The notes: generated by a model not told the origin, from the letters alone. Positions 6,769-64,000 are shown, counted from the stretch's first letter. The stretch: DNA of 64,000 nt from an uncultured Candidatus Saccharibacteria bacterium (GCA_964589975.1 CAZPVH010000001.1:246851-310850); one strand, 5' to 3'. A program made the numbers and translations.

Positions 6769-6981
6769 TTATAATCCCGCAGTCTTTAAAAAGTTTTCCA
6801 AAAACTTCTTCGTATACCCCATCTCGTTATCATACCACGCCATGACTTTCACAAGATTTCCTCCGACAACACGAGTCATTTCCAGGTCCACGATCGATGG
6901 AATAGTTACTCCAGCGATATCTAATGCAACATACATATTTTCATAACTGTGTTTGCCTAAGATACTCATTATACCCTTCAA
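6769..6981 (-). pseudogene. duplicated 3' fragment of gap (GAPDH C-terminal about 45 aa with a novel N-terminus)
   Basis: nt 6808-6922 are about 93% identical to nt 7298-7412 inside gap. The encoded VTIPSIVDLEMTRVVGGNLVKVMAWYDNEMGYTK matches the GAPDH C-terminus. Confidence 0.6.
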
Positions 6982-7252: not shown

Positions 7253-8308
7253 CTAATGTAAACCCTGCGCTGTTTTTATAACATGTTCAAGGAGCGTCTT
7301 CGTATACCCCATCTCGTTATCATACCATGCCATTACCTTGACCAGATTTCCTCCGACAACACGAGTCATTTCCAGGTCCACGATCGATGGAATAGTTACT
7401 CCGACTATATCTGAGGACACAATCGGCTCGTCTGTCGCCGTCAGAAGTCCAGCCCAGCGCTCTGATTTAGACGCTTTTACAAGGATAGAGTTTACTTCTT
7501 CCACAGTCGTCGGTTTTTTCGATATAAAAGTGATATCAACAAGCGACCCGACTGGAACCGGTACACGGATTGAGATGCCGTCGAAAAGTCCCGTAAGTGC
7601 GGGGAAGGCTTTTGTCACCGCGATAGCCGCGCCAGTCGAGCTTGGAACAATATTTTCCGCTGCCGCTCGGCCCTCGCGCAAATCCTTCTTTGATGGTCCG
7701 TCGACAAGCGCCTGAGAAGCGGTGTAGCCATGAACCGTAGAAAGAATTGCCTTCTCAATTCCCAGAGCTTCGTGTAAAACACCGATAAGCGGAGACGCTG
7801 CATTTGTAGTACAAGAAGCGTTCGATGTTATATCACATGTGCCGAATTTGTCTTCGTTCACGCCAAGAAGAATCGTTTCGCCATGGACCACCTGCCCTGA
7901 GCCTGTCGAAGGGTCACTGTCCTTTGCCGGAGCAGAAATCACAACTTTCTTCGCACCTTGATCAATATGGAATTTCGCTTTTTCGAAAGATGTGAAGAGT
8001 CCGGTGGATTCGACGACAACATCGATGTCAAGCTCCTTCCATGGAAGACCGCTTGGCTCCTTTGATGAAACGAATCTCGTCTCGATAGTCCTCGTACCAT
8101 CAGTAACAACGATGTTCCCCGTAGAAAAATCAACGGAGAAAGGCGCCCTACCATAAACAGTATCGTATTTAAGAAGATACGAGAGACTCTCGATACTGCC
8201 GAGATCGTTCACAGCCACGACTTCAATATCGTCGCGCTCCCAAGCCATCTTATAAAACGCTCGGCCGATTCGGCCAAAACCGTTTATTGCAACACGAACT
8301 TTTTTCAT
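7253..8308 (-). CDS. gap: glyceraldehyde-3-phosphate dehydrogenase
   Basis: 351 aa. INGFGRIGR NAD-binding motif and SNASCTTN active-site Cys motif. Confidence 0.95.
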   Translation of the reverse strand: MKKVRVAINGFGRIGRAFYKMAWERDDIEVVAVNDLGSIESLSYLLKYDTVYGRAPFSVDFSTGNIVVTDGTRTIETRFVSSKEPSGLPWKELDIDVVVESTGLFTSFEKAKFHIDQGAKKVVISAPAKDSDPSTGSGQVVHGETILLGVNEDKFGTCDITSNASCTTNAASPLIGVLHEALGIEKAILSTVHGYTASQALVDGPSKKDLREGRAAAENIVPSSTGAAIAVTKAFPALTGLFDGISIRVPVPVGSLVDITFISKKPTTVEEVNSILVKASKSERWAGLLTATDEPIVSSDIVGVTIPSIVDLEMTRVVGGNLVKVMAWYDNEMGYTKTLLEHVIKTAQGLH

Positions 8309-8752: not shown

Positions 8753-10153
8753 TTATTTCAATAAATCTTTTAATATTTGTACTGCAAGCTGTGGATTGGC
8801 GCTTCCTTTAGACTCACGCATAAACTGCCCTACGAGGAACTGAATGGATTTCTCATTCCCGGCCTTGTATTCGGCGACGACTTTTGGATTTGCGGCAATA
8901 ATAGCTTCGGCACTCGCTTTTAGCTTTCCCTCATCGAGCTCTTGAATCAAACCGTGTTCCTTTGCATAACTTTCTGGATCGATATCACTTTTTACCATTT
9001 CGACAATTAGGTCTTTTGCACCACGAGAATTTATCTTATTATCAGCAAGCATTTTTATGATTGTTGCGAAGCTCTTGGCATTTGGAAACGCGAAATCACC
9101 TGTACGGAGACTCATCAGATCTGAAAGAATGTAGTTTGAGGCTTTCTTTATGGCGTCCCCTGCAAGCCCCTCAGCGACAACACTTTCGAAGAAATCAGAG
9201 AGCTCCTTGTCTGCCGCAAATATCGCTGCGTCTTCTTCTTTGATACCAAGCGTCTTCAGCCGCTCGCGTTTCGTGGCAGGCAATTCCGGAAGTTCCGCCC
9301 GCATTTTTTCGAGATCAAACATCTCATGCAGATACATCTTCGGAATATCCGGCTCTGGGAAATACCTATAGTCATGTGAATCTTCTTTCTTCCTTTGTGA
9401 GAAAGTGATCTGCTTGTTTTCATCCCATCCACGAGTTTCTTGGACGATTTCATTTCCCCTTCCTTCCTCCAAAAGTGCAATATGACGCTTAATTTCAAAT
9501 TCCGCCGCCTTTTCTACAGCTTTGAATGAGTTTATATTCTTAACCTCAACTTTCGTGCCAAATTTATCCGTATCAGAAACGGAGAGGTTCAACTCAACGC
9601 GCATCTCGCCCTTTTCCATGTTTGCGTCAGACACGCCAAGGGTTCGGAGAAGGAGTTGGAGTTCACGTCCAAAATCCCCAGCTTCTTTGGCTGAATGGAT
9701 GACCGGCTCGGTGACAAGCTCCATAAGTGGCACGCCCGCTCGATTGAAATCAATAAGAGAAAATTCTCCGCGGTCGTGCTTATTGTTCGCGGTGTCCTCC
9801 TCGAGATGTACTCGCGTGACTTTCACGCCATTGAGATCCCCGCCAGAAACAATCGGATATTTGTATTGAGATATTTGGTAACCCTTTGGAATATCGGGGT
9901 AGAAATAGTTCTTTCGGTCAAATTCAGTAAAGTTCGCGATGTTCGCGCCGATAGCCAGCCCAACCTTAACGACAGACTCGACAGCCTTCATATTCGGCAC
10001 AGGCAAAGTTCCCGGATGCGCCATGCAGACAGGACAAACATTTACATTCGGTTTTTCTTCGTCTGGATTGTTCCGGCACGCACAAAACATCTTGGTAGCT
10101 GTTTTCAGCTCCGCGTGAATTTCTAAACCAATTGTGACTTTATAATCTTTCAT
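8753..10153 (-). CDS. gatB: Asp-tRNA(Asn)/Glu-tRNA(Gln) amidotransferase subunit B
   Basis: GatB N-terminus MKDYKVTIGLEIHAEL and the Cys cluster. The track ORF extends to 10234, but the extra 27 aa are hydrophobic noise. The start was reset to the internal Met at 10153. Confidence 0.9.
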   Translation of the reverse strand: MKDYKVTIGLEIHAELKTATKMFCACRNNPDEEKPNVNVCPVCMAHPGTLPVPNMKAVESVVKVGLAIGANIANFTEFDRKNYFYPDIPKGYQISQYKYPIVSGGDLNGVKVTRVHLEEDTANNKHDRGEFSLIDFNRAGVPLMELVTEPVIHSAKEAGDFGRELQLLLRTLGVSDANMEKGEMRVELNLSVSDTDKFGTKVEVKNINSFKAVEKAAEFEIKRHIALLEEGRGNEIVQETRGWDENKQITFSQRKKEDSHDYRYFPEPDIPKMYLHEMFDLEKMRAELPELPATKRERLKTLGIKEEDAAIFAADKELSDFFESVVAEGLAGDAIKKASNYILSDLMSLRTGDFAFPNAKSFATIIKMLADNKINSRGAKDLIVEMVKSDIDPESYAKEHGLIQELDEGKLKASAEAIIAANPKVVAEYKAGNEKSIQFLVGQFMRESKGSANPQLAVQILKDLLK

Positions 10154-12699: not shown

Positions 12700-13036
12700 G
12701 ATCTTTTATGACACGATCAGCCAGCCAATTCAAAACTGAGACGATGAGCGAACCGAGGAATGCGGCCATAAACGTATCTACTGTCATACCCGGGATGAGA
12801 CCAGAAACAAACCAGAAGAACAGAGCGTTCAGGATAAGCAGAAAAAAACCGAGAGTAATTATGGTGATCGGAATTGTCAGAATTTTTACGACAGGCTTAA
12901 CCGCAACCTGGATAATGGTAAGCGCGGCTCCGGCGATAAGAATCGAAACCCAATCCGCCAGCTCAATTCCCGGTATCAGATAATCAGCGGCAATAACCGC
13001 GAGGGTTAGAAATATGAATCTAAAAAATAATTTCAT
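12692..13036 (-). CDS. DUF360/YvlD phage-holin-4-like membrane protein
   Basis: Four TM helices with the GxxxAxxxA pattern. The start was set to the Met at 13036, directly abutting an arm of the repeat element. Confidence 0.6.
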   Translation of the reverse strand: MKLFFRFIFLTLAVIAADYLIPGIELADWVSILIAGAALTIIQVAVKPVVKILTIPITIITLGFFLLILNALFFWFVSGLIPGMTVDTFMAAFLGSLIVSVLNWLADRVIKDRD

Positions 13037-13157
13037 CCCGTTAGAAGCAGGTCGCGGTCTTATCGCTACCAGCATATTTATCAATTATAATACTGTACTT
13101 TGAATTTAACATAATTTGATTTGTCATCCCGTGGCCGCGGCGTTTAACGGGATTCAT
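13034..13157. repeat. intergenic inverted-repeat element, copy A (left arm CATCCCGTTAGAAGCAGGTCGCGGTC, AT-rich core, degenerate/composite right arm)
   Basis: Left arm 13034-13059 abuts the ATG of the holin-like gene. Right arm 13125-13157 is a collapsed palindrome CATCCCGT..AACGGGATTCAT. Confidence 0.8.
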
Positions 13158-15325: not shown

Positions 15326-15378
15326 GACAGTAGGCCCCGCATTTCGCGGGGCCTTTGGTTTTCTGATAGAATAACGGA

Positions 15379-16449
15379 ATGAATCAATGGATTTTCTTAA
15401 TAATAGGATTAGTTGTTGGCGGAATTACCCTTTCCCTATTCCGAAACAAGCGCCGACCAGAAGAGACCCAGGGTCTTTTACTAATGCAACAACAACTTTC
15501 AGACTTCACTAAAAAAATTGATACCGCACTATTGGAGAATCGTCGTGACATGAACGACGCAGTTCGTTCCCAGTTTTCCGAATCTCAGAAACTTTTACGA
15601 GAAATCAATGAGCAGATGCAAAAAAATTTGGTTGACGTAACCCGCGAGCAAACAAAAGCTAACGAAGCTACACGTCAATTTATGACCATCGCTGAACAAT
15701 TAGCAAACCTTGAAAAAACGTTAAAACACCAAAAGCAACGTGGTAATTGGGGAGAGGCGTCATTAGAACTTATCCTCCAAAACACATTAGCCCCCGGTCA
15801 ATACACAATGCAGTACGAATTTATCAATAAAGAAAAGGTCGATGCTGTGATTACAACCAAGGAGGGATTAATACCAATTGACGCAAAATTTTCTCTTGAT
15901 AACTATAATCGCATATCGCAAGCAACAGACGAGCGTCAACGTGAAGAGCTTGAAAAAGAATTTAAATCAGATCTTAAAAAACGTATTGATGAAACAGCAA
16001 AATATATTAGACCAAACGAGGGCACTCTGCCTTTTGCGTTTATGTATATTCCAGCTGAAGGAATTTACTATGATTTATTAGTTGGCGAGGTCAATAAAGC
16101 AAGTATTAATGCGCGTAATCTTATTGATTATGCCTACAATGACAAAAAAGTAGTAATCGTTTCGCCCACAACTTTCATGGCTTATTTACAATCGGTTTTA
16201 TATGGCTTTAAAGCATTTAAAATTGAAGAGGGTGCAAAAGATATCATTAAGAGAGTAAATGAACTTGGAAAACATTTAAAAGCCTATGAGGATTATATGG
16301 GTAAATTAGGAAACGCGATCGGTACAACTGTTAACCATTACAACTCTGCATACAAGGAACTTGGCAAAGTAGACAAGGACGTTACTCGAATCACGGGCGA
16401 CACTCCAGGCATAGAGCCAATATTAATAGACAAACCATTCGTTGAATAG
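15379..16449 (+). CDS. rmuC: DNA recombination protein RmuC
   Basis: N-terminal TM, long coiled coil, C-terminal RmuC nuclease-like domain. Confidence 0.85.
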   Translation: MNQWIFLIIGLVVGGITLSLFRNKRRPEETQGLLLMQQQLSDFTKKIDTALLENRRDMNDAVRSQFSESQKLLREINEQMQKNLVDVTREQTKANEATRQFMTIAEQLANLEKTLKHQKQRGNWGEASLELILQNTLAPGQYTMQYEFINKEKVDAVITTKEGLIPIDAKFSLDNYNRISQATDERQREELEKEFKSDLKKRIDETAKYIRPNEGTLPFAFMYIPAEGIYYDLLVGEVNKASINARNLIDYAYNDKKVVIVSPTTFMAYLQSVLYGFKAFKIEEGAKDIIKRVNELGKHLKAYEDYMGKLGNAIGTTVNHYNSAYKELGKVDKDVTRITGDTPGIEPILIDKPFVE

Positions 16450-19319: not shown

Positions 19320-20210
19320 TTAACGTACTGGCTTCTTCCAACAGTCGGTGCCGAGATACCCGACGAAGATCGGCTGCGTGAGAAATGGTCGCGCAACCAC
19401 AGCCAGGAATGGTCGATCAATGGTGTGTGGTTTTGGAGCATCCAAGCTGATACCTCGCGATATCATCATCGCGACAGCACTCTCAACTTTTGCGCCGACA
19501 TGATCCATGCAGAACTTCGTCTGCTGGACGGCTTGGGTGATCACCGCAATACGTCCATCCCTTCCGAAGGTCGAGAGGCCAATCAGCCAGCCGAGATCCG
19601 GTTGCAAATCGAGATCGATCATCGGAAAGATCACGCCTGGATACTGCTGGAGGCTCGGCTTCGTTCCGCTCATGATACGTAGAGCAAACCCGTTGAGCTC
19701 TTCCTCCGCCACGGCCTCGTCGGTCATGGTGAGGTACACAACGTCGCCTGAAACCGTCTCGATCCTCACGATCGGTTCGAAGTGGTCCGGGAGCTCAAGG
19801 AATTCAATTCCTTTTTTGAGCAGCACGGCCGGAAACATCCGGTCCGTATTTTGGAGACGGACACCCGTCTCGATTCCCTTCTCGAGCCATTCGAGCATAA
19901 GCTTCAAGACGCTGGCAATGCCGATCTCTCCCGCAGCTCCAGTTGGTTTGAGTTCGATCACAAACCCACGGTCCCGGAGGAACCTGTTTACTGTGGCAAT
20001 GTCCTGCGAGGCGATGCTCTCAAGTTCAGGCATGTCGGATACTTCATCGCGACCGGGCGCGAAAGCGAGCTCGATGAATTGGTGCTGAACTTCATCAAGG
20101 GCTTTCCAAGGCCGATGTGGTCCAAGTTCCTTTTCGGCAGCCACAAGGGCGCCAACGATCGGATAGACGACAGATGTTGCGGTATTGGTCTTTGTTTGCG
20201 CGGCTTCCAT
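19320..20210 (-). CDS. hypothetical protein (296 aa), GC-rich island gene
   Basis: Preceded by a repeated promoter/5'UTR module. The C-terminus has a faint serpin-like motif that was not trusted. Confidence 0.5.
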   Translation of the reverse strand: MEAAQTKTNTATSVVYPIVGALVAAEKELGPHRPWKALDEVQHQFIELAFAPGRDEVSDMPELESIASQDIATVNRFLRDRGFVIELKPTGAAGEIGIASVLKLMLEWLEKGIETGVRLQNTDRMFPAVLLKKGIEFLELPDHFEPIVRIETVSGDVVYLTMTDEAVAEEELNGFALRIMSGTKPSLQQYPGVIFPMIDLDLQPDLGWLIGLSTFGRDGRIAVITQAVQQTKFCMDHVGAKVESAVAMMISRGISLDAPKPHTIDRPFLAVVARPFLTQPIFVGYLGTDCWKKPVR

Positions 20211-20300
20211 CTTTTGGTTTTTTGAGGTTCTGGAAGTTTGGTTTTTTCTGATGTGATATTACTTAAATTATTTCAAAAGTCAATATGCGTACATATCCCA
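20211..20300 (-). promoter_or_regulatory. repeated promoter/5'UTR module, copy 1 (TTGACT-N16-TAATAT plus a leader with two AAAAAACCAAA boxes)
   Basis: About 90% identical to 22059-22140 over roughly 80 bp. Confidence 0.65.
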
Positions 20301-21266: not shown

Positions 21267-22058
21267 TCAAACAGCCACGCCATTAAGTTCCGCGATGATA
21301 GGAACTTGTTGTTTGTGGAAGTTGACCACCTCGATAGCTCTTCGTATGTAAGCCTCCTGGTTTACAGTCAGCTCGTCATCGGTAAGAGGCTCGATACTGC
21401 CCTTGAGGATCTTCTTAGCAAGTCCTCCAGAAAGGAGTTCGGTAAAAGCGGTGTCTTCTCCACGCTCAAGCATTCCTCGTAGTCCGTAGAAGTCAGAACG
21501 CTTGAAAAGCATCTCCTGATTGGTGGTGCGGAAATAGTGACCGCCATTTCCACCATCATACGTCCACTGAATGTTTGAATGACAGTGCATCACCCAGTCC
21601 CAACCAGGACAAAGCATCTTGGCTGAGATCCAGTCATATTCCACCTTACTCCTGTCCTTCGCCCCACCGATGTAGATCATGATCTCGTCACCGACTTTGA
21701 AGTGTTTGACGCCGCGGAATCGTGGGAGAACGAACTTTTTCTCATCTGCTTTTGCATGAAGTCGCTTAAGCAGTTTTACAAGTTCGCCCATGTTGTACTG
21801 GACCAGATTGTTACGCGCACTTTTTGCCAGGGCTTCCTCGATGAGAAGGTTCGACTTTCGTTTCTTCTTCTTCAAACTTCTCACTTCTTCTCGGACATCT
21901 TCAAGTTCTTGATATGCTTCGATGATGTGTTCCGAGGCACGAGAAGAAATGGCCTCGATATTAGCGACTCCGAGCGTCTTACTGACTGCCGGAAGTACGA
22001 TCGTAGGTAGTGAGAAAACGACACTTGCGTAGTCCCACAAGTCTTGTTGTTTGGGCAT
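21267..22058 (-). CDS. hypothetical protein (263 aa)
   Basis: Driven by promoter/leader copy 2. A hairpin terminator follows its stop. Confidence 0.5.
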   Translation of the reverse strand: MPKQQDLWDYASVVFSLPTIVLPAVSKTLGVANIEAISSRASEHIIEAYQELEDVREEVRSLKKKKRKSNLLIEEALAKSARNNLVQYNMGELVKLLKRLHAKADEKKFVLPRFRGVKHFKVGDEIMIYIGGAKDRSKVEYDWISAKMLCPGWDWVMHCHSNIQWTYDGGNGGHYFRTTNQEMLFKRSDFYGLRGMLERGEDTAFTELLSGGLAKKILKGSIEPLTDDELTVNQEAYIRRAIEVVNFHKQQVPIIAELNGVAV

Positions 22059-22140
22059 GGTTTGGTTTTTTGAGGTTCTGGAATTGGTTTTTTCTGATGT
22101 GATATTACTTAAATAGTAGGAAAAGTCAATGTTCTGAAAT
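22059..22140 (-). promoter_or_regulatory. repeated promoter/5'UTR module, copy 2
   Basis: Near-identical to 20211-20300. Confidence 0.65.
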
Positions 22141-22214: not shown

Positions 22215-22289
22215 GGCCCTATCGTCTAACGGTTAGGACGGATCCTTCTCAAGGATTAAATCGGGGTTCGATTCCCCGTAGGGTCACCA
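22215..22289 (+). tRNA. tRNA-Glu (anticodon CUC), CCA encoded
   Basis: Cloverleaf folded by hand: 7 bp acceptor stem, 8 nt D-loop, anticodon loop TTCTCAA, T-loop TTCGATT, 3' CCA. Confidence 0.85.
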
Positions 22290-22344: not shown

Positions 22345-23691
22345 TCAGGAATCTTTATTATTTTTATAATCAAGCCCTTCTCTCTTTATGTTGTTTCGCC
22401 TTCTGGATAGTGATCTAATTTGTTTCTCAATTTTAATATTTTTGAACATTGATAGACTTTTTTTCAGATAATTACTTTTTATCTTGCTTCTCTTACGTAA
22501 GACCGGTTTAAATTTATAGGAAGTATTACCTAACATTTTTTGTACCTTATTTTCCTGCCTGTCTCGCAATTTACCTAAACTTTTCTTCCTCATTAGAATT
22601 TTATCTCCATAGAATTCAAAACCTAAATAATCGATATATTTTCTTCTTTTTAACTTACCATCCCCATCTGTTACTTTTGTTATTATATTTTTATTTAAAT
22701 AAGAAATATTCGTCTTGCCTGGCTGAATCTTGAGATGATTCGTTTTAATTTTTTCTAATAAGAATGTATAAATTTCTTCCTTTTCTGCTTCGGAACAGAC
22801 AATAAAAATATCATCACTATATCTTCTATAAAAAGAATCGGGGAAATTTTTTTTGAACGCCAAATCAAATTCATACATATATATGTTTGAAAATAGTCCA
22901 CTTATAGGACTGCCTTGTGGAATACCAATATTACTTTTACTCTTTTTTATGTAATTTTTTAGTTTTAAATAAACATTTGGGGTACCTTTTTTATTTCTTA
23001 GAACATGCCTTATGTCTGTTTTTTTAAAATCTGGATAGTAATTTATATATTTATATCTTGTAAGGGATTTGTAAATTTTATAAATTAGTGGACCTAACCT
23101 ATTTACAGATAAAATATTTTCTAGATTATTTTTTAGTAAAATATGATTTAATTCATCAAAAAACTTTGTTATATCTGCAGTTATTACTACACATGACTCA
23201 TGTTTTTTTATTTCTTGGAATGCCTCTGATGCAAAATGAATATTGCATTTATTTTTTTGCGGATTCTCTAATGTTGGTACTTTTCTATAAGCAGTTATGG
23301 ATCTATCTATATGATTTGCTTTTATTTTTTTATCATAAAACTCATATACCAGATAATTATAGTAACTGTAAATATACGAGTCGAGATTAGATGCATACAT
23401 TATCGGTCTTTGCTTTTTACTTTTTTGTTTTTCTCTATAAAGACAGCTTTTTATGCAATTTTTCCCAAGCTCAAGTCTTCCACAGTTACATTCTTTGCGT
23501 CTATATCTTATTTCTATGTTGACTCTTTTTATAAAAGGCAGAAATTGATGATTAGTTAAATTTCTAATCGATTTTTCAATTTTTTTTATGTCTTCGTCTC
23601 TATTAAGATCGATTTTGACATCAAAATGTTTATACATTTTGATGTCTTTTTTCTCCTTTAATCCCTGTACCCATTCATCAAACTTATACAT
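22345..23691 (-). CDS. reverse transcriptase (retron/Abi/unclassified-group type), very AT-rich
   Basis: RT motifs ADITKFFD (A/3), GIPQGSPISGLFSNIYM (B/4), YRRYSDD (C/5), KTNI (6), YLGFEF (7). N-terminal about 100 aa extension with CxC-x8-C-x3-C. Basic C-terminal tail. Confidence 0.85.
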   Translation of the reverse strand: MYKFDEWVQGLKEKKDIKMYKHFDVKIDLNRDEDIKKIEKSIRNLTNHQFLPFIKRVNIEIRYRRKECNCGRLELGKNCIKSCLYREKQKSKKQRPIMYASNLDSYIYSYYNYLVYEFYDKKIKANHIDRSITAYRKVPTLENPQKNKCNIHFASEAFQEIKKHESCVVITADITKFFDELNHILLKNNLENILSVNRLGPLIYKIYKSLTRYKYINYYPDFKKTDIRHVLRNKKGTPNVYLKLKNYIKKSKSNIGIPQGSPISGLFSNIYMYEFDLAFKKNFPDSFYRRYSDDIFIVCSEAEKEEIYTFLLEKIKTNHLKIQPGKTNISYLNKNIITKVTDGDGKLKRRKYIDYLGFEFYGDKILMRKKSLGKLRDRQENKVQKMLGNTSYKFKPVLRKRSKIKSNYLKKSLSMFKNIKIEKQIRSLSRRRNNIKREGLDYKNNKDS

Positions 23692-37298: not shown

Positions 37299-38996
37299 CT
37301 ATCTTTCCAAGAAAACCCTGGCCATCTGGACATCAAAATACGACGCGCCTTTAATTTTGCTTTTGACCGGCGAGAGATTCAGTTCTTCAGTTTTGTTATA
37401 AATTTCCTGAAAGGCATTCAGGCACTCTTTAAACTTCTTTGTCTTGGGCCGGAGATATTCGATGCGATCAATGGAGCACAATCCGGTCATAAGAAGCTTC
37501 TCAATATGGTTCAAAACTGTTTCTTTGGTCAGCCCCCTCTCTACCGCGATCTCGTCGATTGATTTTTGCGCGTTGATTAGGACAAGGGTCTTCTCAAAAG
37601 TTGACGTTCGTTTCTCTTCCTCCTCTTTAGCTTTAATGTCGATTGCTTTTATAGATCCTCCGGAGCGCTGGATGAATTCCTCATGCGATTTTTGCATCTC
37701 TTCCGGAGATTTTTTCGAAAGGTATTCGAGTATCTGCTCAGACTTCTTGCGGAAGCGAACATCGGCTTCGATAATCTTTGGATGAACCATGAGGGCGTTC
37801 GCGTTGAAACCAAGGAGCGATAGGCCCGCCAGCGTCCGGACGCGCGAAAGCGCCACGTAGCCCTGTCCGTATTCAAAGGCTTTCCCCAGGTCAATCTCGG
37901 CGGCATCTAGGCTCATGCCCTGGCTCTTGTGAACCGTAATAGCCCAGGCCAGGCGTAAAGGAACTTGGATTATGGAAGCCAAGACTTTATCGCCATCCTG
38001 GACACTCCAGGAGTCAGGCTCAATCACGATCTCCCGACCGTCGTTTGTTATGACAAGTGGATATCCCGTATCATCGTCGAAGCCAATGACTTCGGCGATA
38101 GTGCCATTCACATATCCGGCTTCAAAATTATTCTTCGTACACATAACAACAGCGCCGACTTTGAGACACAGGCTTTCCGGAGAGAGGCAGGTTTCTTTTA
38201 AGCGCTCAACGTACTTCGCCTTACCTCGGGAATCCATTTCAAAATATTGTTCCTCTGTCTCTAGCTTTTCCAGCTCGACGGAGTTTATTTGATCAACATT
38301 AGCGTTGTGAGTATAGAGCTTCGTTGCTTTTACAGTATCTTCAAACGGGACATGAAGCCTGTCGTGTAAATCCTCAAATTCTTCTTCGACTTCGCCTCGA
38401 CGAATACGATCAAGGACGGAGAGAAGCGCATCATCTTCTTGACGGTGTTGTTCGGTTATATAGGCGACCAACGGATTCATTTCCGCCCAACTCTTTGATT
38501 CAAAGGCAAACTTTGCTTCCTCGCCTTTCTTTGAAATTGGCGGAAGCTGGAAGAAGTCGCCTACTAGAACTACTTGTAGCCCGCCGAATGGGAGTTCATT
38601 GCGCCTGAAGCCCTTGCAGACTTTGTTCACGGAATCCAGGAGTTCAGCCGAGAGCATGGAAATCTCGTCAATGATAAGAACTTTCGTCTTGTCGTAGCGG
38701 CTCCAGAGATATTTCTTGCCTTCGAGCTCGTCGACTTCATAATCAGTAATATTTTGCCGGACACCGATGCCTGACCAGGAGTGAATGGTCACACCGCCAA
38801 TATGCGTCGCGGCAATGCCGGTTGAAGCGGTGATAGCGACAGGAATATCGTGCTCACGGAGATACTGCGTGTATTGATTCAAAACATAAGTCTTGCCCGC
38901 CCCCGGCGCACCGGTCAAGAATACATTTGCGCCAGATTTCAATATTGTGAGAGCTTCCGCTTGGGTCATAGGATTAAATTTTAGCACGAAAAGCAA
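37299..38996 (-). CDS. Pif1/RecD-family SF1B DNA helicase with a C-terminal HTH-like tail
   Basis: Walker A GAPGAGKT and the Pif1 signature GDFFQLPPI. Confidence 0.8.
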   Translation of the reverse strand: MLFVLKFNPMTQAEALTILKSGANVFLTGAPGAGKTYVLNQYTQYLREHDIPVAITASTGIAATHIGGVTIHSWSGIGVRQNITDYEVDELEGKKYLWSRYDKTKVLIIDEISMLSAELLDSVNKVCKGFRRNELPFGGLQVVLVGDFFQLPPISKKGEEAKFAFESKSWAEMNPLVAYITEQHRQEDDALLSVLDRIRRGEVEEEFEDLHDRLHVPFEDTVKATKLYTHNANVDQINSVELEKLETEEQYFEMDSRGKAKYVERLKETCLSPESLCLKVGAVVMCTKNNFEAGYVNGTIAEVIGFDDDTGYPLVITNDGREIVIEPDSWSVQDGDKVLASIIQVPLRLAWAITVHKSQGMSLDAAEIDLGKAFEYGQGYVALSRVRTLAGLSLLGFNANALMVHPKIIEADVRFRKKSEQILEYLSKKSPEEMQKSHEEFIQRSGGSIKAIDIKAKEEEEKRTSTFEKTLVLINAQKSIDEIAVERGLTKETVLNHIEKLLMTGLCSIDRIEYLRPKTKKFKECLNAFQEIYNKTEELNLSPVKSKIKGASYFDVQMARVFLER

Positions 38997-51516: not shown

Positions 51517-52053
51517 CTACAGACTCATTAATTTCTTGAACACTTCAAAAGTCGCGCGGGTATCGGCCAGAGCCGTATGCGACTTTTCGTTATGAATACC
51601 GAAATATTCGCAAAGGCGATGGAGATTGAATCGTTCGGCGCGTGGATCCTTGAAAAGCTTGGCGTAGGCCATGGAGATTGTGTCGAGTTTGGCATAAAAC
51701 ATTTCATTTTTCATACCAGTTTTCGTCAGAGCGCGTTCGATGAATGAGTAATCAAATGTTACATTCTGGGCAACCATGATCGCGCCGTCGGACTTTTCTG
51801 AAAATACTTTCATGGCCTCAGAAAGAGTGTTGGCAAAAATCCACTGAGCTTCATCATATCCATTCACTTTGAGCGCCGTCGGCTCCGCATTTTCTATATG
51901 CTCCGGTTTTATCTTCATCTCACGCTCTTCGATAACGGAAAAATTTCCCTTATCCTGTTTTACCAAGATGTAAGCGAGCTCAATGATCTCATGCTTCTCA
52001 GGATCAGTTCCCGTAGTCTCAACGTCGACAAAAATCAAATTCTCGTTTCTCAT
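51517..52053 (-). CDS. DEDDh 3'-5' exonuclease (DnaQ-like)
   Basis: FVDVETTG ... HTALADT motifs. Its ATG is fused to an arm of repeat copy C. Confidence 0.8.
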   Translation of the reverse strand: MRNENLIFVDVETTGTDPEKHEIIELAYILVKQDKGNFSVIEEREMKIKPEHIENAEPTALKVNGYDEAQWIFANTLSEAMKVFSEKSDGAIMVAQNVTFDYSFIERALTKTGMKNEMFYAKLDTISMAYAKLFKDPRAERFNLHRLCEYFGIHNEKSHTALADTRATFEVFKKLMSL

Positions 52054-52167
52054 CCCGTTAGAGGCAGATCGCGGTCTTGTCGCAATCTGCCTTAGTTATA
52101 TTTTTAATTTTATTTTGATTTGAATTCATAATTTTAAATTTTTACAGCGGTCGTGGCCTCTAACGGG
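52051..52167. repeat. intergenic inverted-repeat element, copy C
   Basis: Arms CATCCCGTTAGAGGCAGATCGCGGTC and GCGGTCGTGGCCTCTAACGGG. The core has TTCAAA-N18-TATAAC on the minus strand. Confidence 0.8.
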
Positions 52168-52174
52168 ACGCATA

Positions 52175-56820: not shown

Positions 56821-57375
56821 TTATTTGCCCATTATGACACCCTCTTTTCCCCTGAAGATTTCTTCCAGCGAGAGATTGGCTTCATCGACTTTTGATTGCA
56901 GATTTTCCTTGGCCCGAATCTTTTCGTCCTCTGACATCTCGCCTTCCCTGGCCTGGCGATCAATCTCGCGGATCATGTTCTCGCGCTCTTTCTTGACGGA
57001 CACCCTGGCATCCTCGAGCTTCGCTTTTATAACCTTCACCAGTTTCTCGCGGTTCTCGGTCGTAAGCATTGGGAATATTACCCTGAGTCCCGTCTGGTCA
57101 ACGGCAACGGAAAGACCGAGGTCAGATTTCAAAATCTCTTTTTCAATTTCTTTCACCTGCTGCTTGTCCCACGGAGTCACTCGGAGAGTCTTCGGGTCCT
57201 CAATTGAAATAGACGCCACGTTTCGAAGTGGCTGCCTGGTGCCATAAGAGTCGACAGAGATTCCGTCCAGAACCATCGGGCTCGCAGCACCGGTATGAAG
57301 GGAAGAATATTCCTTCGTCAGCCAGTCTTTCGTCCCGCGAACGCTGTCTTCGAACGGTTTTAGATTGAATTGCAT
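56821..57375 (-). CDS. frr: ribosome recycling factor
   Basis: 184 aa with an RRF pattern. Its ATG is fused to an arm of repeat copy D. Confidence 0.9.
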   Translation of the reverse strand: MQFNLKPFEDSVRGTKDWLTKEYSSLHTGAASPMVLDGISVDSYGTRQPLRNVASISIEDPKTLRVTPWDKQQVKEIEKEILKSDLGLSVAVDQTGLRVIFPMLTTENREKLVKVIKAKLEDARVSVKKERENMIREIDRQAREGEMSEDEKIRAKENLQSKVDEANLSLEEIFRGKEGVIMGK

Positions 57376-57490
57376 CCCGTTAGAAGCAGGTCGCGGTCTT
57401 TACGCGATCTGCCATGATTAGATTTATAATTGTTACTTTTATTGTCATAAATTTGAATCCTTACTCACGCGACCGCGGCTTCTAACGGGA
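57373..57490. repeat. intergenic inverted-repeat element, copy D
   Basis: Arms CATCCCGTTAGAAGCAGGTCGCGGTC and GCGACCGCGGCTTCTAACGGG, with about 70 bp of AT-rich core. Confidence 0.85.
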
Positions 57491-57569
57491 TTGCATAAGT
57501 AAGAGAATTCTAGCAGAAAAGTCTTTCGAACAAAAGAAGAGCCCCGACGCAACGCCGGGGCCTCGTTCT

Positions 57570-58907: not shown

Positions 58908-59573
58908 CTATATTGTTACCGCCAAATGCTCCAAAAGTATCTTCGGGCTTGATCCTTGGTCGCCAATGTATTTCTTGGCCAGATATATATCCTCTACTTT
59001 CTTCTTCTCTGGCATCACCACTCCCCTAGAAATCTCCTTTTCAAGCTCCCCCAGAAACCGTAGTGACTTATCTTTCAAAAGCGGCTTTGATTCCATGTCA
59101 GTAAATTTTTTTATAAAGTCCAGGCGCTCCTTTATGCTTCCAGCCAGGAATTTCTTCGCGTCTTTCTTTAGTTCATCTTCGGCGGCAAACTCACCTATTG
59201 TCGCCATAAGCCGCGAGCGAAGCGTTGGGAAAAGTTTCGTCGCGTCCGGCATGAGGAGGAAAAATGTAACTCCGGGTCGAGGCTCTTCGAAAGCTTTGAG
59301 AAGCGCGTTTTGCGCCGGATATGAGAAAGCGAGAGTCTTTAGGATAATGAATCTCTTTTTAGAATTTATATTCATCGCCTCGGACTCGAAGTCTTTGATC
59401 TCGCGGACATGGTCAATGAGGAGATTCTCATAATCCTTCTCAAAAATGTCAGCATTCCCTGTTGTGAGGTAGCCGAGCTCGTCCAGGGACTTCGCGAGTT
59501 CTTTGTAAGACAAATGAATATCACCCTCTATTAGATACGCATGGTGATTTATTCCGTTCTTTAAGATATTCAT
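58908..59573 (-). CDS. holB: DNA polymerase III delta' subunit-like clamp-loader protein
   Basis: AQNALLKAFEEP motif. Start reset to MNILKNG at 59573, fused to an arm of repeat copy E. Confidence 0.7.
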   Translation of the reverse strand: MNILKNGINHHAYLIEGDIHLSYKELAKSLDELGYLTTGNADIFEKDYENLLIDHVREIKDFESEAMNINSKKRFIILKTLAFSYPAQNALLKAFEEPRPGVTFFLLMPDATKLFPTLRSRLMATIGEFAAEDELKKDAKKFLAGSIKERLDFIKKFTDMESKPLLKDKSLRFLGELEKEISRGVVMPEKKKVEDIYLAKKYIGDQGSSPKILLEHLAVTI

Positions 59574-59688
59574 CCCGTTAGAAGCAGGTCGCGGTCGTTC
59601 CGCAATCTCCTTGGCCATAATTTATAAACTTTATATATATTTTCATATTCGGTTTTTTAAATAAATCGCGACCGCGGCTTCTAACGGG
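59571..59688. repeat. intergenic inverted-repeat element, copy E
   Basis: Arms CATCCCGTTAGAAGCAGGTCGCGGTC and CGCGACCGCGGCTTCTAACGGG. Confidence 0.85.
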
Positions 59689-59697
59689 AAGAATCTT

Positions 59698-61011: not shown

Positions 61012-61017
61012 GTACAA

Positions 61018-61058
61018 CCCCGCCCGAAAGCCGCCCGGCTTTCGGGCGGTTTTTCTTT
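61018..61058 (+). terminator. rho-independent terminator T1
   Basis: CGCCCGAAAG-CCGCCCGG-CTTTCGGGCG followed by a T-run. Near-identical to T3 at 62200-62240. Confidence 0.75.
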
Positions 61059-61089
61059 TATTGACTTTAGACAGAATATTATGTAATGT

Positions 61090-61464
61090 ATGCAAAAAAC
61101 AAAATCCACGCACATGCTCATTGGAACCCGCGGACCAGCATTTTCGCTCATCGAAAGAGCCTACATGGATCGAGAAGCCGGCAAGCTGGTGTCGTTCACT
61201 ACTCGTCTCAAAAGCAAGCAAAAGAAAAAGGCTTTGATTGAGGACAAGCCCGGTGAGCCCTCAGACGTGACCTTCCTTGCCAAAGTGAATGGCATCAAGG
61301 ACCATGAGAACGGCTACGCCACGCTTTATGTGAGCATCGACTCAGGTCTCGGCAAGATCACGCAAAGTACAGAGATCCATCATGAGATCCGGACCGGCAT
61401 TGGCCACTGTGAAGTACGACCAGTACTGCGGCCAAAAGAAGATCTGGTCTCAACACATGCCTGA
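61090..61464 (+). CDS. hypothetical protein (124 aa)
   Basis: The TTGACT-N17-TAATGT promoter abuts the first ATG, so the true start may be the Met at 61114. Confidence 0.4.
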   Translation: MQKTKSTHMLIGTRGPAFSLIERAYMDREAGKLVSFTTRLKSKQKKKALIEDKPGEPSDVTFLAKVNGIKDHENGYATLYVSIDSGLGKITQSTEIHHEIRTGIGHCEVRPVLRPKEDLVSTHA

Positions 61465-61475
61465 CCAATATTCAA

Positions 61476-61510
61476 GGGCCGCCCCAGAAATGGGGCGGTT
61501 TTTCTTTATA
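61476..61510 (+). terminator. rho-independent terminator T2
   Basis: CCGCCCCAGAAATGGGGCGG followed by TTTTTCTTT. Confidence 0.7.
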
Positions 61511-61618
61511 TTCATAATATTCTTATACTTGACTTTTTGCTTAATCTATGGTAGTATATACTCAGAAACTCAAGCTAGTTCACCCTCCAAGCATTGCTTG
61601 GTCAAAACCCAAAACAAC

Positions 61619-62191
61619 ATGAAATTCTGGCCCGGACTGATTTTGATCATCGTGGCAGCCTTCGCAATAGTGGCGGGCTTAGTGCTGACAATCGGCTACT
61701 TCATCGAGGACGACCCCACGACGACCCTCCCCTTGCTTGATATAACCATTGGCGGGATACAAGTCGTCATTACTGGTGTCGCCCTTATTGGTCTCGCTGT
61801 GTTCTTGTTTGCTTGTGTTGTCGGCTATCCTTGGCCTTGGCGCCGTAAGTGCAAGTGCGACACCTGCGACAAGACTACCCGCAACGAGAAGAAAGACGGG
61901 GTGGCAATATGTGACGATTGCCAAGAGAAAAAAGACAACGAAGAAGCGCTGGCCAAGTCTGACTTGGTACCGGCGCTATGCTCGGCCGATGGAACAATGA
62001 TGGAACGCAAGTTCCTGCGTGGCATCATCGTCAATACCTGTCCGGCCTGCAAAGGCTCCTGGCTCTATGAGAAGCAAGTGACTGAGCTCAAAGAAAATAT
62101 GAGCAACAGTCGCGAGTCCTCAAGGATAGCTGGTATGAGTATGGGCTTCTTCATCGGAATGATGCTCGGAATGCAGCTTGGTCGGCACTAG
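61619..62191 (+). CDS. membrane protein with a cytoplasmic Cys-rich zinc-ribbon domain (zf-TFIIB-like CPxCxGxW)
   Basis: Two TM helices, CKCDTCDK, CDDC and CPACKGSWLYEKQVTELKE. Start reset to MKFWPG after a TTGACT-N17-TAGTAT promoter. Confidence 0.5.
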   Translation: MKFWPGLILIIVAAFAIVAGLVLTIGYFIEDDPTTTLPLLDITIGGIQVVITGVALIGLAVFLFACVVGYPWPWRRKCKCDTCDKTTRNEKKDGVAICDDCQEKKDNEEALAKSDLVPALCSADGTMMERKFLRGIIVNTCPACKGSWLYEKQVTELKENMSNSRESSRIAGMSMGFFIGMMLGMQLGRH

Positions 62192-62199
62192 CCGATAAC

Positions 62200-62240
62200 A
62201 CCACCCGAAAGCCGCCCGGCCTTCGGGTGGTTTTTCTTTT
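62200..62240 (+). terminator. rho-independent terminator T3
   Basis: CACCCGAAAG-CCGCCCGG-CCTTCGGGTG followed by a T-run. Confidence 0.75.
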
Positions 62241-62791: not shown

Positions 62792-62855
62792 AAAGCCCTT
62801 CATTATTGAGGGGCTTTTTGTATGGAGCCGTTTCGGATAAGATGAAGACATGAAT

Positions 62856-62969
62856 CCCGTTAGAGATCTGGTGTTAGGATCCAAAACTGCCCATAAATAA
62901 TATGATCGATAATTATAATGAAAATAGTAGACGAGATACGCAAAATAAAATTTTGCTATCTCTAACGGG
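62856..62969. repeat. intergenic inverted-repeat element, copy F
   Basis: CCCGTTAGAGATC ... GATCTCTAACGGG (13 bp perfect inverted repeat). The right arm is followed directly by ATG at 62970. Confidence 0.75.
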
Positions 62970-64000
62970 ATGAAGCTTATTGAAGCTAGCCCCATATCGT
63001 CAAAAGTCGCCAAAGATTCTTTGACTTATTTCTCTTCGAAAAATGTCGCGGTAGGCGATATTATTTCTGTAGAGGTCAGAAAGAAAAAATACGACGCGCT
63101 GGTGGTGGGCGTTAGTGACGTAAAAGACGCGAAGGGCGAACTCAAGTCCGCTGATTTCGGCATGAAGAAAGTTGAAGCTGTTATGGGCAGCGCGCCATTT
63201 TATCCGGAATTTTTTGATGCGTGCAGAGCGATGCGCGATTACTTTGTCGGCAATCTCGGGCAAATTATTGACTATTTCATCCCCTCAGAATTCCTGGAGC
63301 AATACGAAGCATTGCCTCTGCCCAAGAAAAGAATTGTGGGCGGCGCTTCAGTTTTTCATTTATGCGCCACAGTCCGTGAAGCCGAAAAGAAATTTGAATC
63401 ATTGAAACCCGATTTCGATAATATTTTCCTAATTCATGGAAGCCTGCGAAAGAAAACTCTCATAGAGCGATACACGGAAATCCTTTCACACGACGGACCA
63501 ATCACCGTCATCATGACGCCATCATTCCTTTTTCTGCCCCGCCACGACACAAGATCAATTATTATCGAAAATGATATTGGTGGACACTGGAGCACTATCA
63601 AACGTCCGTATTTCGACTTGCGAGTATTCGCCAAGTATTTGGCGGGCAAACTTGGCGCGAAACTTTCTTACGGAGAGGGACTCGTGTCCGTAGAGACCTA
63701 CCGAGAAACAAAAGCAGCCCCGAAACTTAACCTGGGGCAAAACCCGCAAATCATCGATATGACGAACAAAGAAAACCTCTTCAAGAAGAGCTTCATTATT
63801 TCCAGCAATACAGAGACGATACTTAAAAAAAGCGGGCACACGTTTCTATTTTCGCTCCGAAAGGGCTTGGCGAGCCAAGTCATATGCCACGACTGCAAAC
63901 ATGTCCTCTCTCATGACGACCAGCCCGTCACGCTGCACGAAAAAGATGGCGTACGGGTTTTTCGAAGCGCATATTCGAGAAAAGCTATCGACACAAAGGT
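62970..64000 (+). CDS. priA: primosomal protein N' (PriA)-like, N-terminal 343 aa. Runs off the window end and is not in the ORF track.
   Basis: Hand translation MKLIEASPISSKVAKDSLTYFSS... Collinear by eye with the PriA DNA-binding N-terminus and helicase core (FLIHGSLRK ~ VLHSGLND, IIIENDIGGHW ~ VIVIDEEHDSSY, HDCKH Cys region). No GxxxxGKT and no DEEH. Confidence 0.55.
   Translation, partial: MKLIEASPISSKVAKDSLTYFSSKNVAVGDIISVEVRKKKYDALVVGVSDVKDAKGELKSADFGMKKVEAVMGSAPFYPEFFDACRAMRDYFVGNLGQIIDYFIPSEFLEQYEALPLPKKRIVGGASVFHLCATVREAEKKFESLKPDFDNIFLIHGSLRKKTLIERYTEILSHDGPITVIMTPSFLFLPRHDTRSIIIENDIGGHWSTIKRPYFDLRVFAKYLAGKLGAKLSYGEGLVSVETYRETKAAPKLNLGQNPQIIDMTNKENLFKKSFIISSNTETILKKSGHTFLFSLRKGLASQVICHDCKHVLSHDDQPVTLHEKDGVRVFRSAYSRKAIDTK

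What the first reader, a model, noticed from the sequence alone, without database searches (positions are those of the whole stretch)
62970..64000. PriA-like gene whose helicase catalytic motifs appear degenerate
The ORF starting at 62970 is missing from the ORF track because it has no stop inside the window. By eye it aligns collinearly with the PriA N-terminal DNA-binding region and the helicase core (VLHSGLNDSER ~ FLIHGSLRKKT, VIVIDEEHDSSYKQ..RYHARD ~ SIIIENDIGGHWSTIKRPYFDLR, LGSATP ~ SYGEGL). Where the Walker A (GxxxxGKT), Walker B/DEEH and SAT motifs should be, the sequence reads GGASVFHLCA, ENDIG and YGEG. If the alignment holds, this is an ATPase-dead PriA scaffold, which would change how replication restart is viewed in this lineage. 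Its start codon is also fused to repeat-element copy F.
Basis: inference. Interest (0 to 1): 0.55.

Follow-up and report, generated by a model that had tools for sequence, protein, structure and literature searches.

The report
PriA restart protein without ATPase motifs
The gene at the end of the window encodes a genuine relative of PriA, the protein that restarts collapsed replication forks, but it has lost every motif needed to burn ATP; the same loss is seen in about 280 relatives from Patescibacteria (CPR), although a motor-less PriA is already known from Deinococcus.

Summary
An open frame runs from ATG 62970 off the end of the window. It is the first 343 aa of a 576-aa protein (P0001, 100% identical).

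It is a true PriA homologue. The evidence is a Pfam 3'-DNA-binding domain hit, hhalign 99.4% to E. coli PriA, and an AlphaFold model whose nine best PDB matches are all PriA (E 5e-32, TM 0.71).

No ATPase motif survives:
- Motif II DEEH is ENDI.
- Motif III GSAT is GEGL.
- The motif VI arginines are gone.
- The Walker A P-loop is deleted outright.

The winged-helix domain and the inner zinc site are also missing.

The loss is lineage-wide. None of about 280 relatives from Patescibacteria MAGs has a Walker A. In 146 of 146 longer relatives the catalytic Lys is Arg, the same change that inactivates E. coli priA300 and Deinococcus PriA.

The fork-recognition parts are the most conserved: the 3'BD, the fork-junction loop, the outer zinc site with its docking surface, and the CTD. 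The best reading is an ATP-independent fork-recognition and loading scaffold.

This is a new, more extreme variant of the known PriA pseudohelicase. I could not test whether a second, intact priA exists elsewhere in the genome.

The parts
62853..62972 (+). Inverted-repeat element of ~120 nt (arms AATCCCGTTAGAGAT / ATCTCTAACGGGATG, AT-rich interior). Its right arm ends in the ATG start codon of the gene.
   Evidence: Pattern search: 16 matches against 3.3 expected, in inverted pairs ~110 nt apart. Alignment of 5 copies. Predicted long hairpin, z = -4.6. The same element sits on the start codon of the orthologous gene in L002, L003 and L005.
62970..64000 (+). Partial CDS: aa 1-343 of a 576-aa PriA-family protein (P0001). 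The rest lies beyond the window.
   Evidence: Open frame. 100% identical to P0001 over 343 aa. Stop codon 7 codons upstream.
62970..63284 (+). PriA 3'-DNA-binding domain (aa 1-105).
   Evidence: Pfam PF17764: 29.9 bits against a cutoff of 22.7, aa 17-105. hhalign aligns it with E. coli PriA residues 15-105.
63285..63338 (+). 18-aa linker (aa 106-123). It stands where canonical PriA has the winged-helix domain and the first strand, P-loop (Walker A) and helix of helicase lobe 1.
   Evidence: Profile alignments to PriA resume at aa 124 = E. coli G245. The WH region is a gap in hhalign. The P-loop columns are gapped in 21/21 short-type proteins.
63339..63371 (+). Motif Ia-equivalent strand GGASVFHLCAT (aa 124-134).
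   Evidence: Aligns with E. coli G245-KQALVMVPE.
63567..63578 (+). Remnant of motif II (Walker B / DExH): E200-N-D-I203 in place of D320-E-E-H323.
   Evidence: HMMER, MAFFT and hhalign alignments.
63597..63623 (+). IKRPYFDLR (aa 210-218). It is equivalent to the E. coli aromatic-rich loop that wedges into the fork junction, and is the second most conserved block of the family.
   Evidence: Conservation 0.91. Alignment to E. coli 328-338. Role of the loop from PMC5175346 and PMC10175261.
63672..63683 (+). Remnant of motif III: G235-E-G-L238 in place of G355-S-A-T358.
63885..63896 (+). C306-H-D-C309, the first half of the retained outer zinc site of the cysteine-rich region. Its partners C346 and C349 lie beyond the window. 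The inner site (E. coli C445/448/463/466) is absent.
   Evidence: The outer four Cys are invariant in 167/167 proteins. The inner four are lost in 21/21 short-type proteins and kept in about 90% of long-type proteins.

Best explanation
The gene encodes a PriA-derived pseudohelicase. It keeps PriA's fork-recognition architecture: the 3'-end-binding domain, both RecA-like lobes as a rigid frame, the fork-junction loop, a one-zinc cysteine-rich region, and the C-terminal domain. It has no nucleotide-binding site.

Inferred mechanism: the protein binds abandoned forks or D-loops structure-specifically, without ATP. The 3'BD captures the nascent leading-strand 3' end. The lobe-1 loop sits at the junction. 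The CRR, lobe 2 and CTD hold lagging-strand ssDNA. The protein then recruits the replicative helicase, directly or through a partner docking on the very conserved CRR surface. In effect it is a natural equivalent of E. coli priA300 (K230R) and of D. radiodurans PriA.

Shown here: homology, fold, absence of every ATPase motif, family-wide purifying conservation, and the order of losses. Inferred: ATP independence, DNA binding, and a role in helicase reloading.
For: Homology and fold: PF17764 hit; TIGR00595 and PRK05580 models at E 1e-38 to 1e-45; PDB PriA at E 4e-30; hhalign 99.4% for the short type and 100%, E 1e-42 over E. coli residues 15-729, for the long type; AF2 model with pLDDT 82 and pTM 0.78, whose top 9 PDB hits are all PriA (E 5e-32, TMq 0.71), with the next best (Mfd) at 1.5e-6.

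Motif loss: no [AG]xxxxGK[ST] at the motif I position and no DExH/D in any of the 21 short-type proteins. Motifs II, III, V and VI are substituted. In the long type K230 is Arg in 146/146, with G229 and S228 as Glu/Asp.

Not decay: intact ORFs at 44-75% identity; 23+19+12+21+20 invariant positions spread across the domains; the most conserved blocks are the CRR surface WNFDSLGIGTDT, the ARL-equivalent IKRPYFDLR, and the 3'BD DSLTYFS.

Not a genome-wide artefact: a Pif1-like helicase in the same window keeps GAPGAGKT and LIIDE.

Precedent for ATP-independent function: PMC4504706 (D. radiodurans PriA binds DNA and DnaB with no ATPase); PMC5778457 (priA300 is restart-proficient); PMC10175261 (fork recognition uses the 3'BD, HD1 loop, CRR, HD2 and CTD, and ATPase is not needed for the PriA-PriB pathway).
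Against: There is no biochemical test. The whole genome could not be searched, so an intact priA elsewhere is not excluded. The winged-helix domain, which contacts parental duplex in E. coli, is missing. The residue matching E. coli D17 of the 3'-end pocket is Thr. The partner is unknown: PriB and DnaT are confined to some Proteobacteria, and no replication partner is encoded next to the gene, which sits among cell-wall and division genes. Deleting the central P-loop strand is unusual for a RecA fold, and the model's high confidence there rests on only 21 sequences.
Confidence: 0.75

Rival explanations
1. It is a neofunctionalised paralogue. A canonical, ATP-driven PriA elsewhere in the genome performs restart, and this protein does something else, such as acting as a regulatory or structural DNA-binding factor.
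For: Only 64 kb of the genome and ~20 kb around seven orthologues could be searched. The gene lies in a cell-wall and division neighbourhood (murE-murB-murA or mreB upstream; ybeY-ftsA-ftsZ downstream), not a replication one.
Against: No second PriA-like sequence was found in the window or in any locus. None of the roughly 280 best-scoring proteins retrieved from Patescibacteria was canonical. These genomes are small, and to my knowledge bacteria normally carry one priA. Annotators name family members simply 'primosomal protein N''.
Confidence: 0.1
2. It is still an NTPase, using a non-canonical nucleotide site.
For: The review notes unresolved suggestions of a second, weaker nucleotide site in E. 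coli PriA (PMC5778457). Long-type relatives keep an invariant Arg at the K230 position.
Against: In the window's protein the whole P-loop element is deleted. Motifs II, III and VI, including both arginine fingers, are replaced as well. K230R alone abolishes ATPase in E. coli, and D. radiodurans PriA with the same K-to-R change has no ATPase (PMC5778457, PMC4504706).
Confidence: 0.03
3. It is a decaying relic with no function.
For: All catalytic motifs are lost, and the winged-helix domain, the P-loop segment and one zinc site have been lost one after another.
Against: Full-length intact ORFs occur in hundreds of divergent genomes, down to 27-36% identity among long-type members. Invariant residues, four invariant Cys and conserved blocks are kept. 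A conserved cis-element is kept on the start codon in four genomes. The structure prediction is confident.
Confidence: 0.02
4. It is a PriA-derived fork or D-loop binder whose main role is not helicase reloading, for example protecting or marking 3' ends, or acting in recombination.
For: DNA-recognition modules are conserved, while nothing links the protein to DnaB or a loader. An RmuC gene and a Pif1-like helicase occur in the window, but not adjacent to it.
Against: The strongest conservation is on the CRR surface that in E. coli docks the next primosome protein (PMC10175261). That points to hand-off to a partner rather than DNA binding alone. D. radiodurans PriA binds DnaB (PMC4504706).
Confidence: 0.1

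Closest known systems
Deinococcus radiodurans PriA pseudohelicase (Deinococcus-Thermus PriA; Lopper et al. 2015, PMC4504706)
   Same: It is a PriA homologue with degenerate motifs I and II and is presumed ATPase- and helicase-dead while keeping DNA-binding architecture. The long-type Patescibacteria relatives carry the very same Lys-to-Arg change at the Walker A lysine (146/146).
   Different: Deinococcus PriA is described as keeping a recognisable Walker A box with Lys replaced by Arg (PMC4504706). The window's protein has deleted the P-loop element entirely. It also lacks motifs III and VI, the winged-helix domain and the inner zinc site. It comes from a different phylum; common descent or convergence was not tested because I had no Deinococcus sequence in hand. 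It has no biochemistry.
Canonical PriA / primosomal protein N' (E. coli, K. pneumoniae; PDB 4NL4, 6DGD, 8FAK; TIGR00595)
   Same: Domain order 3'BD, RecA lobe 1, lobe 2 with an inserted Cys-rich region, then CTD. It is the best fold match (TM 0.71). The CHDC...CxxC outer zinc ligands are conserved, and there is a loop equivalent to the aromatic-rich loop.
   Different: No winged-helix domain, no Walker A, no DExH, no SAT, no motif VI arginines, and one zinc site instead of two. It has 576 aa against 732. It scores 133 bits against the 230-bit TIGR00595 cutoff.
E. coli priA300 (K230R) allele
   Same: It is a functional analogue: a PriA without ATPase, helicase or translocase activity that still supports restart through the PriA-PriB pathway (PMC5778457).
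   Different: It is a laboratory point mutant with all other motifs intact, and it depends on PriB and DnaT. Neither is known outside some Proteobacteria, and I did not search for them here.

Membership tests
PriA (primosomal protein N', replication restart helicase) | N-terminal 3'-DNA-binding domain (PF17764) | tested here: met
   29.9 bits on the window fragment and 29.0 bits on the full protein, against a gathering cutoff of 22.7, aa 17-105. hhalign aligns it with the E. coli 3'BD.
PriA (primosomal protein N', replication restart helicase) | Overall PriA fold: two RecA-like lobes, a CRR inserted in lobe 2, and a C-terminal domain | tested here: met
   AF2 model with pLDDT 82. Foldseek top 9 hits are all PriA, E 5e-32, TMq 0.71. 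hhalign 99.4%.
PriA (primosomal protein N', replication restart helicase) | Walker A / motif I GxxGxGKT | tested here: not met
   No such motif anywhere in the protein. The segment is deleted, and the alignment resumes at motif Ia.
PriA (primosomal protein N', replication restart helicase) | Walker B / motif II DExH | tested here: not met
   E-N-D-I at the aligned position.
PriA (primosomal protein N', replication restart helicase) | Motif III (SAT) and the motif VI arginine fingers (QxxGRxGR) | tested here: not met
   E-G-L replaces S-A-T. The R584 position is Phe and the R587 position is deleted.
PriA (primosomal protein N', replication restart helicase) | Cysteine-rich region binding two zinc ions (8 Cys) | tested here: not met
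   Only the outer four Cys (the equivalents of C436/439/476/479) are present. The inner four are absent in all 21 short-type proteins.
PriA (primosomal protein N', replication restart helicase) | Winged-helix domain between the 3'BD and the helicase core (as in E. coli and K. pneumoniae PriA) | tested here: not met
   An 18-aa linker takes its place, and E. coli residues ~110-200 are unaligned. I did not survey whether all canonical PriAs have this domain.
PriA (primosomal protein N', replication restart helicase) | Score above the NCBIfam equivalog cutoff (TIGR00595) | tested here: not met
   132.7 bits against a cutoff of 230.35. All PRK05580 models also fall far below their cutoffs.
PriA (primosomal protein N', replication restart helicase) | Loads the replicative helicase at abandoned forks | not testable with these tools
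   Needs biochemistry or genetics.
PriA pseudohelicase (Deinococcus-Thermus type) | PriA architecture with poor matches to motifs I and II | tested here: met
   Definition from PMC4504706.
PriA pseudohelicase (Deinococcus-Thermus type) | Walker A box retained, with Lys replaced by Arg in GKT | tested here: not met
   Met in 146/146 long-type relatives. In the window's protein the whole segment is deleted.
PriA pseudohelicase (Deinococcus-Thermus type) | No ATPase or helicase activity, but retains DNA binding and DnaB interaction | not testable with these tools
   Inferred only.
PriA pseudohelicase (Deinococcus-Thermus type) | Shared descent with Deinococcus-Thermus PriA | not tested

The most novel reading that the evidence does not exclude
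PriA lost its motor in or before the last common ancestor of the sampled Patescibacteria lineages and is their only PriA. On this reading a sizeable part of bacterial diversity restarts replication with an ATP-independent fork-recognition scaffold. The invariant Glu-Glu/Asp-Arg that replaces the P-loop in long-type proteins would be a built-in mimic that fixes the lobes in one state. The window's lineage would show that even this element, and one zinc finger, can be removed. That would overturn the textbook statement that PriA helicase activity is conserved across bacteria except Deinococcus.
Probability: 0.45. Interest if true: 0.65.

Novelty: new variant of a known kind. Interest (0 to 1): 0.5.

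Why it matters
[quoted passage not shown] Here, none of about 280 sampled PriA-family proteins from Patescibacteria MAGs has a Walker A. These MAGs are labelled Saccharibacteria, Paceibacterota, Minisyncoccota, Nomurabacteria, Taylorbacteria and Zambryskibacteria.

If these are the only PriAs in those genomes, motor-less PriA is a common natural solution rather than a curiosity. The family would then be a natural experiment showing which parts of PriA are indispensable: the 3'BD, the junction loop, the outer zinc site with its docking surface, and the CTD.

It also explains an annotation problem. These genes fall below the PriA equivalog cutoff and are often labelled hypothetical. They should not be called helicases.

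Tried and rejected
- Exact-sequence look-up of P0001 to fetch the DNA beyond the window found nothing on record. The C-terminal 233 aa are therefore known only as protein.
- The afdb50 fold library was unavailable.
- tblastn with E. coli PriA and P0001 against the window and 7 loci found no second PriA. This covers only a small part of each genome, and no tool could search the rest of the 328-kb contig or the MAG.
- Six literature searches combining PriA or primosomal protein with Saccharibacteria, candidate phyla radiation, Patescibacteria, Parcubacteria or DciA found no description of this family.
- I considered and rejected RecG, Mfd or DEAD-box identity: the next-best fold hits are 25 orders of magnitude weaker.
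- A first MAFFT alignment with a single E. coli sequence misplaced the 3'BD against the WH region. hhalign corrected this.
- I briefly suspected a diversity-generating retroelement from repeats near the reverse-transcriptase gene. The repeats are duplicated 5' regions of two genes, so I dropped the idea.
- Rfam has no family for the repeated element.

Full report
**1. The observation**

The frame opening at ATG 62970 stays open for 343 codons to the end of the window. The ORF tool does not list it because it runs off the end. An in-frame stop lies seven codons upstream, with no other start codon between it and the ATG. The fragment is 100% identical to the first 343 residues of a 576-aa protein, P0001, recorded on a 328,725-bp NCBI contig.

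**2. It is a PriA homologue**

- Pfam finds only the PriA 3'-DNA-binding domain: 29.9 bits on the fragment and 29.0 bits on the full protein, against a cutoff of 22.7.
- NCBIfam priA models match the full protein at E 2e-45 (PRK05580.1-3) and 1.5e-38 (TIGR00595). These are well below the equivalog cutoffs, for example 132.7 against 230.35 bits.
- A profile of 21 close relatives (alignment A1) hits only PriA chains in the PDB at E 4e-30.
- hhalign against E. coli PriA (sequence taken from NC_000913) gives 99.4% probability.
- An AlphaFold2 model (pLDDT 82, pTM 0.78) has PriA structures as its nine best Foldseek matches (E 5e-32, TMq 0.71). The next best, Mfd, is at 1.5e-6.

**3. State of the catalytic motifs**

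I mapped the protein on E. coli PriA (GSGKT at 227, DEEH at 320, GSATP at 355, QVAGRAGR at 580).

| Motif | E. coli PriA | Window protein |
|---|---|---|
| I (Walker A) | GSGKT 227-231 | segment absent |
| II (Walker B) | D320-E-E-H | E200-N-D-I |
| III | G-S-A-T | G235-E-G-L |
| V | GTQMLAKGHHF | GTEMALPYIE |
| VI | R584, R587 | Phe; deletion |

That is the motif Ia strand, which follows Walker A. The P-loop with its flanking strand and helix is simply missing, as is the winged-helix domain. Eighteen residues (106-123) join the 3'BD to motif Ia.

Of the eight zinc-binding cysteines, the outer four are present and the inner four are gone.

A regular-expression scan finds no Walker A or DExH/D at the motif I or II position in any family member. 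The few GK[ST] tripeptides seen elsewhere in some relatives have no Walker A context.

As a control, a Pif1-like helicase in the same window (37299-38996, minus strand) keeps GAPGAGKT and LIIDE.

**4. The loss is lineage-wide and stepwise**

An exhaustive profile search of 1.84 billion cluster representatives gave 12,486 hits. The best 150 all have E below 1e-103. Most of them are 613-680 aa. They differ from the window's 564-589-aa clade by about 40 extra residues at the P-loop position.

None has a Walker A at the motif I position; the one pattern match (P0053, GEFARGKS at residue 162) falls in the segment that aligns with E. coli Q244-G245-K246 before motif Ia, not with the P-loop.

Aligned with E. 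coli PriA, the long-type proteins show:
- Arg at the K230 position in 146/146, preceded by Glu-Glu/Asp where E. coli has Ser-Gly. hhalign of 73 of them against E. coli PriA (100% probability, E 1e-42, residues 15-729) gives the same register.
- Motif II as E-[RKH]-E-[SNH].
- Motif III as G-D-x-L.
- No motif VI arginines.
- Both zinc sites mostly intact.

A further 113 members from a word-indexed search also lack Walker A at the motif I position; the one pattern match (P0202, residue 591 of 639) is near the C-terminus, far from motif I.

Source names include Patescibacteria group, Candidatus Saccharibacteria, Paceibacterota, Minisyncoccota, Parcubacteria, Nomurabacteria, Taylorbacteria and Zambryskibacteria. 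Annotators call the proteins 'hypothetical protein', 'PriA 3primeBD protein', 'primosomal protein N'', or in one case 'primosomal protein N' family DNA-binding protein'.

A neighbour-joining tree rooted on E. coli PriA puts the 21 short-type proteins in one clade, nested inside the long type, with P0023 and P0022 as successive sisters. The order of events is therefore:
1. Inactivation by substitution, including the Lys-to-Arg change.
2. In the window's lineage, a single deletion of the dead P-loop element and loss of the inner zinc site.
3. Within that lineage, further erosion of motif II, from HDEH to ENDI.

**5. The protein is under selection**

Family members are intact ORFs at 44-75% identity in the short type and about 27-36% in the long type. 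Invariant positions occur in every domain.

The most conserved blocks in the short type are:
- WNFDSLGIGTDT (352-363). It directly follows the last zinc ligands. It corresponds to E. coli S481-T482-H483, which with D438 (also conserved here, in CHDC) forms the PriB-docking surface (PMC10175261).
- IKRPYFDLR (210-218). It corresponds to the aromatic-rich loop that is wedged at the fork junction (PMC5175346, PMC10175261).
- DSLTYFS in the 3'BD.

**6. Mechanism**

This section is inference, built on established PriA biology.

In E. coli, fork recognition uses the 3'BD and CTD on the leading arm and HD1 and WH on the parental duplex. [quoted passage not shown] ATPase is not required for the PriA-PriB pathway (PMC10175261). 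priA300 (K230R) cells behave almost like wild type (PMC5778457). D. radiodurans PriA has the same Lys-to-Arg change, no ATPase or helicase activity, and still binds DNA and DnaB (PMC4504706).

The window's protein keeps exactly the ATP-independent modules and conserves them best. I therefore read it as a structure-specific fork or D-loop recognition scaffold that hands the site to the replicative helicase through a partner docking on the CRR surface.

The partner is unknown. The neighbours are cell-wall and division genes: mreB or murA upstream, and ybeY-ftsA-ftsZ downstream in L001 and L002. In the window itself the upstream genes are two unassigned ORFs, mreB and a delta'-like holB.

**7. 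What remains open**

None was found there. ATPase loss is predicted, not measured. The relationship to Deinococcus-Thermus PriA (convergence or common origin) was not tested. Six literature searches found no description of this family.

**8. The element on the start codon**

The ATG is the last triplet of TCTAACGGGATG. This is the right arm of a ~120-nt inverted-repeat element, 62853-62972. Four more copies have the same layout, at 13034-13154, 52051-52170, 57373-57492 and 59571-59691. There are 16 matches to TAACGGGATG with at most one mismatch, against 3.3 expected.

In the other four copies the left arm supplies the start codon of a minus-strand gene: an unnamed ORF (13036), an RNase T-like exonuclease (52053), the ribosome recycling factor (57375) and holB (59573). 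Each element is predicted to fold into a long hairpin that encloses the start codon (z from -4.6 to -7.9).

The same element, with both arms, sits on the start codon of the orthologous priA-like gene in L002 and L005. The TCTAACGGGATG arm is on the start codon in L003 as well, where I did not read the upstream sequence. These proteins are only about 52% identical to the window's. It is therefore a conserved cis-element rather than a recent mobile insertion. Its function is unknown and it matches no Rfam family.

**9. Verdict**

This is not a new kind of system. It is a new and more extreme variant of the PriA pseudohelicase, and it appears to be the rule in a very large bacterial radiation. 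Interest is moderate (0.5).

Noticed in passing
window 13034-13154, 52051-52170, 57373-57492, 59571-59691, 62853-62972; also L002 9880-10003, L005 9880-10003, L003 ~9428-9439: A family of ~120-nt inverted-repeat elements (CATCCCGTTAGA...AT-rich core with TATAAT-like boxes...TCTAACGGGATG). One arm ends in the start codon of the adjacent gene: the priA-like gene, holB, frr, an RNase T-like exonuclease and an unnamed ORF. Each is predicted to form a long hairpin that occludes the start codon (z -4.6 to -7.9). The element is conserved on the priA-like start codon in genomes whose proteins are only ~52% identical, so it is a cis-regulatory element rather than a recent MITE insertion. It matches no Rfam family.
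   Followed up: partly
window 58908-59618 (-): The delta'-like (holB) ORF as listed starts at an upstream ATG (59618). The conserved TCTAACGGGATG element places the likely true start at the ATG at 59573 (Met16, '...SNGM NILKNG').
   Followed up: partly
window 37299-38996 (-): A Pif1-like SF1 helicase with intact Walker A (GAPGAGKT) and Walker B (LIIDE) and a C-terminal HTH_40 domain. It is a possible provider of the unwinding activity that the PriA-like protein lacks. I used it only as a control.
   Followed up: partly
window 22345-23691 (-), tRNA-Glu(CTC) at 22215-22289 (+): A reverse-transcriptase (RVT_1) gene lies immediately beside a tRNA-Glu gene. The type (group II intron, retron or DGR) was not determined.
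   Followed up: no
window 20208-20284 and 22056-22130; 6778-6931 and 7268-7421: There are two pairs of direct repeats. The first pair (~75 nt, ~90% identical) are the 5' regions, including the start codons, of two minus-strand genes (19320-20210 and 21267-22058). The second pair is a 154-nt repeat at 85% identity, spaced 490 nt apart.
   Followed up: no
window 61016-61059 and 62197-62240: Two 91%-identical 44-nt GC-rich hairpins, each followed by a T-run (AACCCCGCCCGAAAGCCGCCCGGCTTTCGGGCGGTTTTTCTTTT). They look like intrinsic terminators and flank the 61382-62191 membrane and zinc-ribbon-like ORF.
   Followed up: no
protein P0192: NCBI names one family member 'primosomal protein N' family DNA-binding protein' (Minisyncoccota). 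This suggests annotators have implicitly recognised a non-helicase PriA subfamily, although no paper describing it was found.
   Followed up: no
window 15379-16449 (+): An RmuC-family (DNA recombination) gene whose start codon is preceded by a one-mismatch copy of the same leader motif (TAACGGAATG at 15372-15381).
   Followed up: no
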